A stretch of DNA of 64,000 nt from Promethearchaeota archaeon (GTDB taxonomy: Archaea; Asgardarchaeota; Lokiarchaeia; Sigyniarchaeales; SOKP01), in contig JBHLMQ010000004.1 of assembly GCA_048938005.1 (NCBI GenBank), forward strand, positions 34,447-98,446, read 5' to 3'. The first letter of the stretch is position 1, and each line of letters opens with the position of its first letter. The notes under the pieces are model-generated. The model was given only the letters and a program-made list of their open reading frames with translations. It made no database searches and was not told the origin of the DNA. Below, piece by piece: positions 45,690 to 49,477 of this stretch. A program made the translations under genes and the position numbers.

Positions 45690-46718
45690 TTATAGTTTTG
45701 GCTTCAATATATCATTAGAAGTTGCATCTCCATAGATCTCTTTAGCCAAAATTCTTAATCCTTCTAAACCAATTGGTTCTTCCCTAAGTCTATCAGACTC
45801 CCAGATTTTTAATTTTTTGAACTCATTTTTTATTTCTAATAAGTATTTTTCTTGAATAGAAGAGATTTGACTGCAAAAATTACATTTTTTTGCATGTTTT
45901 TTAGGGATTAACATGTTTATATGGATACCATCAAGCTGAATATATTTTTTTGTTAATTCTCGTGCTCTTTTAATTTCTTCAAAACTTGGTTTTTCGGCTA
46001 TAGTTACTAATCTAAGTGACCCAATATCGTGAATTAAATATGAAATTCTCTCTCCACGTTTTTCTAATTCAACTATCATATTAAAAATTTCTTTTCCTAA
46101 TTCTCGTCTTTCTTCGTAATTATTAAATGGTTTGATTATATTTCTCCACATTTTTGAAAAATGTCGAATCGCACCTTTTATGGAATTATAAAAATTTAAT
46201 GAGTACTTTAACACAACTTTGACTTGGTCTTCAGGTATCTCAAAAAGAGTAATCATATTTGCCGTTGGAGGGAAATCTGCAATTATTATATCAAATTGAA
46301 TATCTTGATTATTAATATCTTCAGCATCTAATATTTTTTGAAAAAACATAGCATTTTTTAGTGCTAATGGAATAGAATCAGCTGTAAAAGTTGTATCTAT
46401 AAATTTTTCGATTTGTGGGATCTTCCCTACAAGAGGCATTTGCTTTGTAAGAGTTTTCATTTTCTCTATCAAATCTTTAGTGTATTTCTTAGCATAACTA
46501 TCCGCATCTGGTTCAATGCCCCATAGATTTTTTGTTAATAGTGTTAACTTGTTTCCAATCTCCAATTTAAATAGATCACTAAGGTTATGAGCCATATCAA
46601 AAGAAATAAGTAGAAATTTTTTGTCCGGAAGTAATTCTGAAAGTAATACTGCTGTAGCGGCACTAATAGAACTTTTCCCTACTCCTCCTTTTCCCCCAAG
46701 AACTATAATTCTTTCCAT
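45690..46718 (-). CDS. ArsA/Get3(TRC40)-family ATPase, single domain
   Basis: GGKGGVGKSS P-loop, DMAHNLSD, CNFC, EPIGLEGL. Confidence 0.88.
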   Translation of the reverse strand: MERIIVLGGKGGVGKSSISAATAVLLSELLPDKKFLLISFDMAHNLSDLFKLEIGNKLTLLTKNLWGIEPDADSYAKKYTKDLIEKMKTLTKQMPLVGKIPQIEKFIDTTFTADSIPLALKNAMFFQKILDAEDINNQDIQFDIIIADFPPTANMITLFEIPEDQVKVVLKYSLNFYNSIKGAIRHFSKMWRNIIKPFNNYEERRELGKEIFNMIVELEKRGERISYLIHDIGSLRLVTIAEKPSFEEIKRARELTKKYIQLDGIHINMLIPKKHAKKCNFCSQISSIQEKYLLEIKNEFKKLKIWESDRLREEPIGLEGLRILAKEIYGDATSNDILKPKL

Positions 46719-47002
46719 GATTTGCTGTGGTTTTGAAACATCTAGCTTATTATATCAAAAATAAAAATAACATAAAAAACTAACTAAACAGAATTTTTTT
46801 TAATATTCTTACAATTAGCAAAAAATAAATTAATTAATTAATTTAATAACTCATAATCATCGTAAAAATGATGATTTCAAATTCAAAGTTATAAATCAAA
46901 AATAAAAAGTAATTATATCAAATTTATTCAAAATAATTTTTTAACTTATATAAATTAGATTTGGAAAGAAAAAATTGGAATTTAGAAAATGTAATTTAAA
47001 TT

Positions 47003-48233
47003 ATGGATGTGATCAAGATTACAAGTCAAAATGAATTTACAACTAAATATATAATAGAAGTAAAATTTACCATTAAAGGTGTTGTGGAAAAAAGCGATAT
47101 AGTCGGTGCTATTTTCGGCCAAAGATAGATTAGAAACAAGCCAATTCGGCTAATTCGGCTAAACTGAAGGTCTTCTTTTAGATCTCGATTTGAGAGATCT
47201 CCAGAAGTCTGGTCGAATTGGGCGGATAGAAGTAGAAACCGAATCTAAAGAGGGAGTTTCTAAGGGCATTATTAAAATTCCGTCCTCATTGACTAGAAAG
47301 GAGACAGCATTATTGGCAGCGACTGTTGAAACTGTTTCTCGAGTTGGTCCATGCGAAGCAGAAATTAAGCTTATTGAAATTCGAGACGTTCGTGAAAGAA
47401 AACGGAAAAAAATTATAGAAAGAGCTGCAGAACTTTTAAAAGAATGGGACCAAAAATCTCTAGAGCAAAGTGAAATAGAAGAAAAAATAGATACTGATAT
47501 AAAGCTTGGAGAAATTATTTCATGGGACTCAGAGAATCTTCCTGCGGGGCCAGAAGTAGATAATAATCCAGATTTAATTATTGTGGAAGGACGAGCAGAT
47601 ATTCTAAATTTATTAAGAATTGGTGTTAAAAACACAATTGCTGTTCAAGGAACTCAAGTCCCTAAATCAGTAATTAAATTAGCAAAACAAAAAAAATCAG
47701 TAACAGCATTCGTTGATGGTGACCGTGGTGGAACAATTATTCTTAAGGAACTTTTGCAAGTTGCAAGAATTGATTATGTAGCTAGAGCACCCGATGGATA
47801 TGAAGTTGAAGAATTAACTAGAAAGCAAATGATAAAATCCTTACAAAACAAAAAACCAGCAAAATTTTTTAAGAATATTAAAGAAAAAGAGATTACGGAG
47901 AATGATATTAGTGATATAACAGAAGATGTTCATAAAATTTTAAAGAAGATTAAAGTTAAAGATGAATCTCTAATCAAGAATGCAATTGAGAATATTGAAG
48001 CAGGTTTTGGGATTGGACTTAATAAAAACCTCGAAAAGTTGTTTGATATGCCTGTAGGTGAAATTTTTGAAAAAATTAGGGACTTTAAAGATACTCAATA
48101 TTTAATAATTGATGGAATTTTGACAAAAAGGCTTCTTTCACTTGCAATAAATATGAAAATTAAATTTATTGCATGCAAAAATAAAGAAGAAGAATTATTT
48201 ATTCCTGAACATATTCTAGTACATTTCTTTTAA
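47003..48233 (+). CDS. dnaG: Archaeal DnaG (TOPRIM primase / exosome-associated protein) in two exons: 47003-47122 and 47163-48233, about 396 aa after splicing
   Basis: Exon 1 ...TKYIIEVKFTIKGVVEKSDIVGAIFGQ; exon 2 TEGLLLDLDLRDLQKSGRIGRIEV...IVEGRAD...DGDRGG; the track ORF 47190-48233 lacks the conserved N-terminus. Confidence 0.9.
47123..47162 (+). other. Candidate 40-nt BHB-type intron in dnaG mRNA
   Basis: Central helix GGCC(47117-20)/GGCT(47157-60) flanked by AAA bulges (47121-23, 47161-63); canonical cuts after 47122 and 47162 give GGC CAA ACT GAA. Confidence 0.8.
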
Positions 48234-48261: not shown

Positions 48262-48501
48262 CTATTTTCCAAGTGGTATAAAGGAGAATATTAGTTGTAT
48301 TATATATGAGACAACACCAAGAAGCACAATTCCAATAGCACAAATTTTAAAAACTAAAAAGTAATCCTTTCTCTTGGGTTTATTTGCAATTTTAAGAATT
48401 CTTTTTGAATTTTGGAAAAAAAAGGCTAATCTTCCATATAAACCAGGTTTTTCCTTCTTGCTTTTTTTAGCATATTTTTCATATTTTGGGTATTGAGACA
48501 C
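48262..48501 (-). CDS. secE: Protein translocase SecE/Sec61-gamma
   Basis: RILKIANKPKRKDY plus single C-terminal TM; downstream of ftsY. Confidence 0.9.
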   Translation of the reverse strand: MSQYPKYEKYAKKSKKEKPGLYGRLAFFFQNSKRILKIANKPKRKDYFLVFKICAIGIVLLGVVSYIIQLIFSFIPLGK

Positions 48502-48586: not shown

Positions 48587-49477
48587 TCAATCAATATCGA
48601 GTATATTTGAAATAAATAAATCTCGATCAAACGGTGTTAAATCTTGGTAACTTTGGCCTACACCTAAAAAAATGATTGGTTTTTTTGTCTCAAACGAGAT
48701 TGATAAAGCAGCTCCACCTTTTGCGTCAGCATCTATTTTTGTTAAAATATTGGCGTCAATTCCAACATGTTTATTAAATTCTCTCGCTTGAAAAAGAGCA
48801 TCGTTTCCCGCAAGGGAATCTCCGATAAAAATAACTAAATCTGGTTGAGCTACTCTGCATATTTTTTGTATTTCTATCATTAAGTTCTTATCTGTAACTT
48901 GTCTTCCTGCTGTATCAATTAAAACAACATCAATATTTTTGGCTTTAGCGTGTTCAATAGCATCGTAAGCAACAGAGGCAGGATCAGATTTATATTCATG
49001 CTTTATAACTCTTATTCCTACTTTTTCCATATGATAAGATAATTGTTCGATTGCTGCTGCTCTAAATGTGTCTGCTGCTGCTGCTACAATTGAGAATCCA
49101 TTTTTTTTTAAAAAATAAGCAATTTTAGCCATAGTTGTGGTTTTTCCTGTTCCGTTAACTCCAAGAAAAACAAGTACATAGGGTTTCCCTTTTTTTTTAA
49201 TTTCCTCAAGTAAATCAATCTCTTCTCTGGGTGTTAAGATCTCCGTGATTGTTTCTTTTAATACTTCAAATAACATTTTTTGGGTGGATGATAGGCGCCC
49301 AATTTGTTTTCCTTTAAAAGAATCAATAATCTTATTGCATATTTCATCAGCAGTGTCAATAGCTACATCATTACTTAAAAGAAGTAATCTTAGATCATTA
49401 ATGGCATTATCTAACTTTTTTTCTGTTAAAGTTTTTTTTACAAATGATGAAAAAACGTTCTTTAATTTTTCAAGCAT
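48587..49477 (-). CDS. ftsY: SRP receptor FtsY
   Basis: GVNGTGKTTT, DTFRAAA, DTAGR, TKIDADAKGG. Confidence 0.96.
   Translation of the reverse strand: MLEKLKNVFSSFVKKTLTEKKLDNAINDLRLLLLSNDVAIDTADEICNKIIDSFKGKQIGRLSSTQKMLFEVLKETITEILTPREEIDLLEEIKKKGKPYVLVFLGVNGTGKTTTMAKIAYFLKKNGFSIVAAAADTFRAAAIEQLSYHMEKVGIRVIKHEYKSDPASVAYDAIEHAKAKNIDVVLIDTAGRQVTDKNLMIEIQKICRVAQPDLVIFIGDSLAGNDALFQAREFNKHVGIDANILTKIDADAKGGAALSISFETKKPIIFLGVGQSYQDLTPFDRDLFISNILDID

What the first reader, a model, noticed from the sequence alone, without database searches (positions are those of the whole stretch)
47003..47200. BHB-type intron inside a protein-coding gene (dnaG) of a probable Asgard archaeon
Seen: the conserved archaeal DnaG motif GAIFGQTEGLL is split exactly between Q and T by 40 nt (47123-47162). 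The insert shifts the frame and reads AGA TAG, so unspliced mRNA gives a ~41-aa peptide. The junctions form a 4-bp helix (GGCC 47117-20 / GGCT 47157-60), each strand followed by an AAA bulge. Cutting after the second nucleotide of each bulge, the rule for the archaeal tRNA splicing endonuclease EndA, removes exactly 40 nt and rebuilds GGC CAA ACT GAA. The exon-side helix is relaxed (C/C and U/U next to the bulge), so this is an HBh'-like form. Both exons are otherwise intact. Known: EndA-type mRNA introns are rare in archaea, the main example being crenarchaeal cbf5, and archaeal DnaG is an exosome-associated RNA-binding protein. Inference: pre-mRNA splicing by tRNA machinery that couples DnaG expression to endonuclease/ligase activity, loosely analogous to tRNA-ligase-dependent HAC1/XBP1 splicing in eukaryotes.
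Basis: partly seen in the sequence, partly recalled or inferred. Interest (0 to 1): 0.95.

Follow-up and report, generated by a model that had tools for sequence, protein, structure and literature searches.

The report
tRNA-type intron splitting Asgard dnaG

Summary
Window 47123-47162 (40 nt) interrupts dnaG exactly between two adjacent columns of the archaeal DnaG profile. It shifts the frame and starts with AGA TAG.

It is not an artefact. DNA contigs from three studies span it unchanged. dnaG is single-copy in the genome. Both exons are under purifying selection.

The decisive evidence is comparative. In the same family, 51 of 124 dnaG loci carry a 29-43 nt insert at the same codon boundary. 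In 45 distinct sequences the central helix pairs in 180 of 180 cells, and one pair occurs as C-G, U-G, A-U, G-C and G-U. The genome encodes two EndA paralogues and RtcB.

The best reading is a relaxed (HBh'-like) bulge-helix-bulge mRNA intron. It looks old in the family and has been lost many times. No RNA data were available, so splicing itself is inferred.

Other points: two more intron positions exist in dnaG, and the same genome holds a second intron-bearing gene (zinc-ribbon/LOR). My six literature searches found no report of BHB introns in coding regions other than crenarchaeal cbf5.

The parts
47003..47122 (+). dnaG exon 1 (ATG plus 39 codons, ends ...GGC CAA = Gly39 Gln40)
   Evidence: NF003108 profile positions 1-26 match residues 15-40. 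pN/pS is 0.195 across 51 intron-holders.
47123..47162 (+). 40-nt intron, unique in the genome
   Evidence: blastn-short finds no second copy. Same-site inserts of 29-43 nt occur in 51 of 124 family loci.
47163..48233 (+). dnaG exon 2 (356 codons plus stop 48231-48233), with Toprim domain
   Evidence: profile 27-282, E 2.5e-108; Toprim.
47117..47120 (+). Central helix H, 5' strand (GGCC, exon 1)
   Evidence: Pairs with 47157-47160. Alignment columns 19-22 with 62-65 pair in 180 of 180 cells.
47157..47160 (+). Central helix H, 3' strand (GGCU, end of intron)
   Evidence: Pair 21-63 occurs as CG 28, AU 7, UG 6, GC 2, GU 2.
47121..47123 (+). 5' bulge AAA; predicted cut between 47122 and 47123
   Evidence: Sequence. 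The cut rule 'between second and third bulge residue' is from passages of PMC2738675.
47161..47163 (+). 3' bulge AAA; predicted cut between 47162 and 47163. The bulge becomes 5 nt (47161-47165) if the exon helix forms in the shifted register.
   Evidence: The canonical exon-helix register pairs in 45.9% of cells and the register shifted by 2 pairs in 89.6%.
47124..47125 (+). Helix h', 5' strand (GA). It pairs with UC 47155-47156. The third pair is U/U in this genome.
   Evidence: In relatives columns 26-28 with 59-61 pair in 93.3% of cells.
47155..47156 (+). Helix h', 3' strand (UC)
47139..47151 (+). Hairpin inside the intron: AGCC (47139-47142), loop AAUUC, GGCU (47148-47151)
   Evidence: Present in the MFE fold. 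Columns 44-47 with 53-56 pair in 96.2% of cells, with changes such as UGCCG/CGGCA and GUCG/CGGC.
47126..47128 (+). In-frame TAG that ends translation of unspliced mRNA after 41 aa
   Evidence: In all 51 holders the first in-frame stop lies in codon 1, 2 or 3 of the insert (5, 43 and 3 cases).
47111..47116 (+). Exon-exon helix h, 5' strand (AUUUUC). It pairs with GAAGGU 47166-47171 in the shifted register.
   Evidence: The three pairs next to H are Phe UUY against Glu GAR codons, so the protein sequence forces them.
47166..47171 (+). Exon-exon helix h, 3' strand

Best explanation

Proposed mechanism:
1. In the transcript, the last exon-1 bases GGCC (47117-47120) pair with the last intron bases GGCU (47157-47160). 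This forms the 4-bp central helix.
2. Each strand then has an AAA bulge. A short intron helix (GA 47124-47125 with UC 47155-47156) closes the 5' bulge. The exon-side helix is relaxed, so the motif is HBh'-like.
3. The genome's two-subunit splicing endonuclease EndA cuts after the second base of each bulge, at 47122|47123 and 47162|47163.
4. RtcB joins the exons to give GGC CAA ACU GAA. The mRNA then encodes a 396-aa DnaG. The 40-nt intron is probably released as a circle.
5. Unspliced mRNA would stop after 41 aa.

Shown here: the geometry, its conservation and compensatory changes in relatives, intact and constrained exons, and the presence of the enzymes. Inferred: cleavage, ligation and the circular intron.

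The intron is old in the family and has been lost precisely many times. It therefore looks like a tolerated, dispensable element and not a required regulator.
For: - Exact junction: exon 1 ends at DnaG profile position 26 and exon 2 starts at position 27.
- Single dnaG locus, and the insert is unique in the genome.
- DNA contigs of three studies (runs X1, X2, X6) span the insert with 0 differences, and no joint skips it.
- Census of the family (135 genomes searched, 128 with dnaG; 124 loci with both exons found): 51 hold a 29-43 nt insert at the same Q|T boundary, 4 hold one 21 nt upstream, and 69 hold none.
- In 45 distinct sequences the central helix pairs in 180 of 180 cells. Pair 21-63 occurs as CG 28, AU 7, UG 6, GC 2, GU 2. 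h' pairs in 93.3% of cells. The true register gives 77.7-94.1% of cells paired against 24-52% for slid registers. 0 of 500 shuffles reach the observed covariation score.
- Insert lengths fall in all three residue classes mod 3. Every insert has an in-frame stop within its first 3 codons. Exon 1 has no stop in any of the 51 holders. Exon 2 is open for 352-369 codons. pN/pS is 0.195 for exon 1 and 0.168 for exon 2.
- The genome has two EndA (PF01974) paralogues and one RtcB. Passages of PMC5829648 state that Asgard archaea have the (alpha-beta)2 EndA with the loop that gives broad specificity.
- Same-site inserts with canonical BHB geometry also occur in another family of the order (L029) and in two other families of the phylum (L212, L216).
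Against: - No RNA data: no RNA run was listed, so no spliced junction or circular intron has been seen.
- The BHB conformer is not the predicted minimum-energy fold. The MFE is -19.1 kcal/mol, the BHB-constrained fold is -13.9, the median penalty over 51 holders is +7.2 kcal/mol, and only 2 of 51 lie within 1 kcal/mol.
- In this genome h' has only 2 bp before a U/U mismatch.
- The 3' bulge is followed by C/C and U/U, or must be read as a 5-nt bulge, so the motif is not the strict hBHBh' form.
- The bare geometry is frequent in the genome: 25,700 raw hits.
- The three best exon-helix pairs are forced by Phe/Glu codons and carry no independent weight.
- Related sequences are not independent, so the shuffle statistics overstate significance.
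Confidence: 0.88

Rival explanations
1. The intron is a regulatory switch. Splicing is rate-limiting and couples the DnaG level (an exosome subunit) to EndA/RtcB activity or to RNA stress, like HAC1/XBP1.
For: - Expression of full-length DnaG must depend on EndA and RtcB if the intron is spliced.
- An early in-frame stop is kept in 51 of 51 holders.
- An alternative, more stable fold competes with the BHB conformer, which could gate splicing.
- The abstract of PMC7667871 (seen in the listing) names aDnaG as an RNA-binding exosome subunit.
Against: - 36 of 52 loci in the same genus and 69 of 124 in the family have no intron here.
- The gene tree needs at least 9 state changes, so the intron is dispensable.
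- A zinc-ribbon/LOR gene, in which I found no RNA-metabolism domain, carries the same kind of intron in the same genome.
- No sensor or condition-dependence is known or testable here.
Confidence: 0.1
2. There is no splicing and the gene is split or truncated. A 41-aa peptide and a separately initiated C-terminal protein (first start TTG 47190) are made, or only the latter.
For: the ORF listing gives two ORFs, 47003-47128 and 47190-48233. No RNA evidence for splicing exists.
Against: - The codons between 47163 and 47189 (TEGLLLDLD) are conserved as protein in all holders although they lie upstream of any start.
- Exon 1 stays under purifying selection (pN/pS 0.195).
- A split gene does not explain compensatory pairing between the exon Gly codon and the end of the insert.
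- It also does not explain why the insert always sits at the same phase-0 boundary.
Confidence: 0.04
3. Translational bypass: the ribosome hops over the insert, as in phage T4 gene 60 (recalled). Alternatively, a programmed frameshift.
For: In this genome the flanks look like a direct repeat (TTCGGCCAAA and TTCGGCTAAA), and a stop follows the take-off region.
Against: - The repeat is a by-product of the palindrome GGCC.
- In relatives the two sides are complementary and not identical: GGAC with GUCU, GGGC with GCCU, GGUC with GACC.
- The codon before the gap (CAA/CAG) does not match the codon before exon 2 (UAA).
- Lengths of 29-43 nt fall in all frames, which excludes a simple frameshift.
Confidence: 0.02
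4. Decaying pseudogene, assembly artefact, or a small mobile-element insertion with target-site duplication.
For: The frame is broken. The genome is a metagenome-assembled draft (101 contigs, 7.2% contamination).
Against: - Independent DNA contigs from three studies agree.
- There is a single dnaG locus.
- There are no other lesions, and both exons are constrained in 51 species.
- The insert is not repeated in the genome.
- There is no duplication in the GGAC/GUCU-type relatives.
Confidence: 0.01

Closest known systems
cbf5 pre-mRNA intron of Crenarchaeota (Watanabe 2002; Yokobori 2009, PMC2738675)
   Same: - A short intron inside a protein-coding gene.
- Often an unconventional or relaxed BHB motif.
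- Predicted cuts between the 2nd and 3rd bulge residues.
- The host has a hetero-oligomeric EndA.
- Patchy distribution explained by gain and loss (passages read).
   Different: - A different gene (dnaG, not cbf5) and a different phylum (Asgard). cbf5 of this genome is uninterrupted.
- The dnaG intron lies between codons (phase 0). The cbf5 intron is placed between the 1st and 2nd letter of the catalytic Asp codon.
- dnaG has three alternative intron positions within about 40 nt.
- cbf5 splicing was shown by cDNA, whereas here it is inferred.
BHB introns of archaeal tRNA and rRNA precursors (hBHBh' and relaxed HBh'/hBH forms)
   Same: A 4-bp central helix, 3-nt bulges on opposite strands, EndA plus RtcB as the machinery, and part of the motif built from exon sequence. 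The definitions come from passages of bioRxiv 10.64898/2026.10.13.758758 and PMC5829648.
   Different: The host RNA is an mRNA, so the exon half of the motif is also constrained by codons (Gly GGN, Gln CAR). There is no tRNA body to help recognition.
BHB element in the 5' UTR of Haloferax volcanii HVO_1309 mRNA (PMC7714728)
   Same: An mRNA processed by the splicing endonuclease (passages read).
   Different: That element lies in the untranslated leader, not in the reading frame. It occurs in a euryarchaeon, and cleavage was shown in vivo and in vitro.
HAC1/XBP1 unconventional mRNA splicing in eukaryotes (recalled; RtcB link cited in the reference list of PMC5829648)
   Same: Non-spliceosomal removal of a short mRNA intron by an endonuclease, followed by a tRNA ligase. 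Removal changes the reading frame.
   Different: The eukaryotic nuclease is IRE1, which recognises stem-loops and is stress-activated. Nothing here shows regulation.

Membership tests
Archaeal BHB (EndA-dependent) intron | Central helix of exactly 4 bp between the two cleavage sites | tested here: met
   47117-47120 pair with 47157-47160 (G-U, G-C, C-G, C-G). 180 of 180 cells pair in 45 distinct sequences, with five pair types at one position.
Archaeal BHB (EndA-dependent) intron | 3-nt bulge at the 5' splice site, closed by an intron helix h' | tested here: met
   AAA 47121-47123, then G-C and A-U. h' is only 2 bp in this genome. It pairs in 93.3% of cells over 3 pairs in relatives, and it is a long hairpin in genera g12, g16 and g23.
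Archaeal BHB (EndA-dependent) intron | 3-nt bulge at the 3' splice site, closed by an exon helix h (strict hBHBh') | tested here: not met
   The canonical register pairs in 45.9% of cells. The two pairs next to the bulge are C/C in all 45 sequences and unpaired in 32 of 45. A helix forms only if the bulge is 5 nt (89.6%). So this is the relaxed HBh' class, not the strict form.
Archaeal BHB (EndA-dependent) intron | Cutting after the 2nd base of each bulge restores the functional RNA | tested here: met
   It removes exactly 47123-47162 and joins DnaG profile positions 26 and 27. The same rule restores ...GQ|TEG... in all 51 holders.
Archaeal BHB (EndA-dependent) intron | Host encodes the splicing endonuclease (a broad-specificity type for relaxed motifs) and an RNA ligase | tested here: met
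   Two PF01974 matches over the cut-off (contig C26 with a 205-aa frame, contig C56 with a 219-aa frame) and one RtcB. The subunit type and the specificity loop were not examined here. Passages of PMC5829648 state the (alpha-beta)2 type for Asgard.
Archaeal BHB (EndA-dependent) intron | Spliced RNA and excised (circular) intron observed; cleavage by EndA in vitro | not testable with these tools
   No RNA run was listed for this sequence.
Archaeal DnaG (NF003108) | Full-length match to the equivalog profile over its cut-off (300 bits) | tested here: met
   Exon 2 alone scores 363 bits over profile 27-282. Exon 1 adds profile 1-26. A Toprim domain is present.

The most novel reading that the evidence does not exclude
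BHB introns in Asgard protein-coding genes are mobile. They are gained at new BHB-compatible sites and spread between lineages together with a short stretch of flanking exon, by reverse splicing followed by cDNA recombination or by DNA-level gene conversion. dnaG would then be a hot spot of an intron-gain process acting on mRNAs in the closest prokaryotic relatives of eukaryotes.

Leads:
- dnaG has three intron positions within about 40 nt: site B in the Ile33 codon, site A at Q40|T41, and site C in a Leu codon 16 nt downstream.
- Site-B introns sit on four separate tips of the gene tree, three of them among intronless sisters and one (L155) inside a site-A clade.
- The site-B introns of L032 (genus g1) and L138 (genus g22) differ at 2 of 30 nt.
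- L138 differs from its intronless sister L137 at 5 of the 21 nt next to the intron, but at only 18 of 600 nt of exon 2.
- The codon string GTCGGCGCC occurs in 12 of 51 site-A holders, 3 of 4 site-B holders and 0 of 69 intronless loci.
- A second gene shows the same presence/absence pattern and shifted positions.
Probability: 0.3. Interest if true: 0.92.

Novelty: new member of a known kind. Interest (0 to 1): 0.82.

Why it matters
In the papers I could search, the only BHB intron reported inside an archaeal coding region is crenarchaeal cbf5. PMC7714728 (2020) says so in the passage I read, and it adds one BHB element in an mRNA leader (HVO_1309). PMC12397907 (2025) cites only the cbf5 papers. 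I found no report for dnaG or for Asgard archaea (searches; subscription journals are not covered).

If the splicing is confirmed, four things follow.
1. mRNA splicing by the tRNA machinery extends to the archaeal group closest to eukaryotes.
2. At least two genes in one genome are affected.
3. Dozens of species pairs with and without the intron form a natural series, including alternative positions. Precise intron loss, gain and possible mobility become testable on it.
4. Gene callers will report dnaG as truncated or split in about 40% of this family, which is a practical annotation issue.

Tried and rejected
- RNA evidence: the look-up of sequencing runs listed no RNA holder. This says nothing about expression.
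- Single-sequence folding does not show the BHB (constrained folds). I did not use it as support.
- Rfam gave no match at E <= 1 in 46800-47400.
- The insert is not a repeat. blastn-short in the genome found only chance matches of 17 nt or less.
- A cbf5 intron was sought in this genome. cbf5 is uninterrupted.
- Genome-wide scans for other BHB-split reading frames:
  - Scan 1 (H 4 bp, h' at least 2 bp, exon frames of at least 30 and 100 codons, stop inside the insert) gave 25,700 raw hits and 43 after filters on coding score and start codon. I printed and read by eye the top 12.
  - Scan 2 (h' at least 4 bp, looser frames) gave 8,580 raw hits and 639 after filters. I printed and read by eye the 14 best compact ones.
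  - Only dnaG and the zinc-ribbon/LOR gene were convincing. The others I read looked like adjacent genes or antisense frames. None of those was tested by homology, so the scans give a lower bound, not a census.
- Site A in L215 (family f20) has two competing solutions: H 3/4 with a long h', or H 4/4 with a 2-bp h'. I left it open.
- The FastTree gene tree joins long outgroup branches and has 38 open forks. I use it only for the count of changes and for the intron-holding early branches. It is not a species tree.
- The ungapped exon-2 identities (about 65%) are probably lowered by indels. I do not use them as a measure.
- I did not search public collections for the spliced junction, because that would need a joined sequence to be typed.
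- Supplements of the papers were not opened. The supplementary tables of the Asgard tRNA-intron preprint might list non-tRNA BHB sites.
Full report
**What is in the window**

- An ORF starts at ATG 47003, reads ...VGAIFGQR and stops at TAG 47126-47128, giving 41 aa.
- A second frame is open from 47163 (TEGLLLDLDL...) to the stop at 48231-48233, giving 356 aa.
- Against the NCBIfam model of archaeal DnaG (NF003108), exon-1 residues 15-40 match profile positions 1-26 (E 5.5e-9). Exon 2 starts at profile position 27 (363 bits, E 2.5e-108). Exon 2 holds the Toprim domain.
- The 40 nt at 47123-47162 therefore sit between two adjacent profile columns. They shift the frame by one.
- GGCC 47117-47120 can pair with GGCU 47157-47160. 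Each strand is followed by AAA. Cutting after the second A on each side removes exactly the 40 nt.

**Is it real DNA, and is the gene alive?**

The genome (3,720,495 bp, 101 contigs, 29.8% G+C) has one dnaG locus and no second copy of the insert. Contigs from public DNA runs of three different studies span the insert without a difference: X1 over 46900-47500, X2 over 46900-47184, and X6 over 46900-47360. No contig skips it. No RNA run was listed. Record titles of close relatives name Promethearchaeota and Promethearchaeia MAGs, including 'Loki_b32'. The Asgard assignment therefore holds. Several submitters used other Asgard phylum names for MAGs that fall in the same genus.

**Comparative evidence**

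I searched dnaG in all 54 held genomes of the genus, in the family (135 genomes, 128 with a match), in the order (154 genomes) and in a 400-genome sample of the phylum. I fetched the loci.

Of 124 family loci in which both exons could be placed:
- 51 carry an insert of 29-43 nt at the same Q|T boundary ('site A').
- 4 carry an insert 21 nt upstream ('site B').
- 69 carry none.

By genus:

| Genus | Site A | Site B | None |
|---|---|---|---|
| g1 | 15 | 1 | 36 |
| g22 | 18 | 2 | 18 |
| g21 | 0 | 1 | 7 |
| g12 | 5 | 0 | 0 |
| g23 | 6 | 0 | 0 |
| g16 | 3 | 0 | 0 |
| g17 | 2 | 0 | 0 |
| g14 | 1 | 0 | 0 |
| g20 | 1 | 0 | 0 |
| g15 | 0 | 0 | 5 |
| g13 | 0 | 0 | 1 |
| g18 | 0 | 0 | 1 |
| g19 | 0 | 0 | 1 |

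Rows dropped: partial loci (G001, G015, G101, G131, G138). G089 (L208) was dropped only from the tree, not from the census.

In all 51 site-A holders, exon 1 has no stop and exon 2 is open for 352-369 codons. pN/pS is 0.195 for exon 1 and 0.168 for exon 2. In the 69 intronless loci the values are 0.158 and 0.121. The first in-frame stop lies in codon 1, 2 or 3 of the insert (5, 43 and 3 cases). Insert lengths fall in all classes mod 3. These are working genes that cannot be read through.

**Structure**

I aligned the 45 distinct site-A segments (A1) and counted pairs for the BHB model.
- The central helix pairs in 180 of 180 cells.
- Its third pair links the wobble base of the Gly codon to the intron. 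It occurs as C-G (28), A-U (7), U-G (6), G-C (2) and G-U (2). For example, exon GGAC goes with intron GUCU, GGGC with GCCU, and GGCC or GGUC with GGCU.
- Helix h' next to the 5' bulge pairs in 93.3% of cells. In g12, g16 and g23 it continues into a plain hairpin.
- A hairpin inside the longer introns pairs in 96.2% of cells.
- Sliding the 3' partners by 1-3 columns drops pairing to 24-52%.
- 0 of 500 shuffles reach the observed covariation score. Relatedness inflates that figure.
- The exon-side helix is poor in the canonical register (45.9%) and good if shifted by two bases (89.6%), which makes the 3' bulge 5 nt. Its three best pairs are Phe UUY against Glu GAR codons, so they show why the site can host a BHB, not selection for it.

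In the window's own genome h' is only G-C and A-U, followed by U/U.

Thermodynamic folding does not favour the BHB conformer. It lies +5.2 kcal/mol above the MFE here, and the median over 51 holders is +7.2. I count this against the reading. The model penalises bulges and ignores the protein.

**Machinery**

The genome has two EndA-domain genes and one RtcB. Passages of PMC5829648 state that Asgard archaea have the (alpha-beta)2 EndA with the loop linked to broad substrate range, and that only such enzymes cut relaxed motifs. A 2026 preprint reports two EndA paralogues in 44 of 60 Asgard genomes and very intron-rich tRNA genes. ARAGORN calls only 16 tRNAs in this genome, 12 of them with an intron.

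**Rivals**

- A direct-repeat origin or a ribosome hop is suggested only in this genome, where GGCC is a palindrome. In relatives the two sides are complementary, not identical.
- A split gene does not explain the covariation, or the conserved codons upstream of any start.
- A pseudogene or artefact is excluded by the data above.

**History**

On a FastTree gene tree rooted with other families of the order, the early branches of the family (g12, g17, g14/g20/g23/g16) all hold site A. The three states need 14 changes, and starred branches force at least 9 for presence/absence. The simplest reading is an old intron with many precise losses.

In the rest of the order, the 12 matching genomes of family f2 and the 4 of f4 are contiguous. 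The one f3 genome has a 29-nt site-A intron with GGGC/GCCU.

In the phylum sample, split matches appear in 18 of 18 matching f19 genomes, 3 of 3 f20 and 2 of 2 f33. I inspected five of these:
- f33 and f20 have site-A introns (GGCC/GGUU; GGUC/GACC).
- f19 has a 28-31 nt intron inside a Leu codon 16 nt downstream ('site C'), with H 4/4 and 8-9 bp of h'.

**Regulation**

Nothing supports a switch. The intron is absent from most close relatives, and the same kind of intron sits in a zinc-ribbon/LOR gene that shows no RNA-metabolism domain.

**Second gene**

A scan of the genome for BHB-split frames ranked dnaG third. First was a zinc-ribbon/LOR gene on contig C11. It has a 30-nt hairpin intron with H UGGG/CCCA, 10 bp of h' and a stop in codon 2. 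Exon 2 matches Pfam LOR positions 32-186.

Among 23 loci of the genus:
- 6 hold a 30-nt intron at the same D|W boundary, with many compensatory stem changes.
- 3 hold an insert a few bases upstream.
- 14 are uninterrupted.

**Novelty**

Six literature searches found no report of a dnaG intron or an Asgard mRNA intron. The passage read in PMC7714728 states that cbf5 is the only further BHB intron reported. The 2025 paper PMC12397907 cites only the cbf5 work. cbf5 of this genome has no intron.

I file the finding as a new member of a known kind, with high interest. What is missing is RNA or enzyme evidence.

Noticed in passing
L032 (G053), L138 (G104), L155 (G142), L168 (G098): 21-22 nt upstream of the position that corresponds to window 47122|47123: dnaG has a second intron position ('site B'), inside the Ile33 codon (GAT AT | 30-31 nt | A/T GTC GGC). 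The central helix is AGAU with GUCU, AUCU or GUUU (4/4 pairs in three loci, 3/4 in L138), followed by a long h' hairpin. The four holders lie on four separate tips of the gene tree.
   Followed up: partly
L138 compared with L137; L032 compared with L138: L138 differs from its intronless sister L137 at 18 of 600 nt of exon 2, but at 5 of the 21 nt between site B and site A. The site-B introns of L032 (genus g1) and L138 (genus g22) differ at 2 of 30 nt. The string GTCGGCGCC at the Val-Gly-Ala codons occurs in 12 of 51 site-A holders, 3 of 4 site-B holders and 0 of 69 intronless loci. This could be a co-conversion tract (a mobile intron) or an unknown structural constraint.
   Followed up: partly
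L213 (G253) and L214 (G262), family f19 of the same phylum: dnaG has a third intron position ('site C'), inside a Leu codon 16 nt downstream of site A. The introns are 28 and 31 nt, with H GCCU/GGGU and 9 and 8 bp of h'. All 18 matching f19 genomes in the sample show the split-match pattern. Only 2 were inspected.
   Followed up: partly
L222:804-833, minus strand (G000 contig C11, 146203-146232; outside the window): The same genome holds a second protein-coding gene with a BHB intron. It encodes a zinc-ribbon plus LOR (PF04525) protein. The intron is a 30-nt perfect hairpin between ...EKYWD and WGSGD..., with H UGGG/CCCA, 10 bp of h' and a stop in codon 2. Six of 23 loci in the genus hold it with compensatory changes, 3 hold an insert a few nt upstream, and 14 are uninterrupted.
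   Followed up: partly
window 47101-47107 with 47153-47160: The predicted MFE fold pairs exon-1 AGUCGGU with the intron's 3' end AUUCGGCU. This competes with the central helix. I did not test whether the alternative is conserved or matters.
   Followed up: no
whole genome G000: ARAGORN calls only 16 tRNA genes, 12 of them with an intron. Many tRNA genes are probably interrupted in ways it cannot model, in line with the 2026 preprint on Asgard tRNA introns.
   Followed up: no
G126: L152 (contig C40) and L188 (contig C91): One genome holds two full dnaG copies, one without an intron and one with a 38-nt site-A intron. The copies fall in different clades of the gene tree. This may be a mixed bin rather than a true duplication.
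   Followed up: no
window 45690-46718 (-), 48262-48501 (-), 48587-49477 (-): By eye only, the neighbours of dnaG are a P-loop ATPase-like ORF (GGKGGVGKSS), a small membrane ORF, and an SRP-receptor-like GTPase ORF. None was run against a family library.
   Followed up: no
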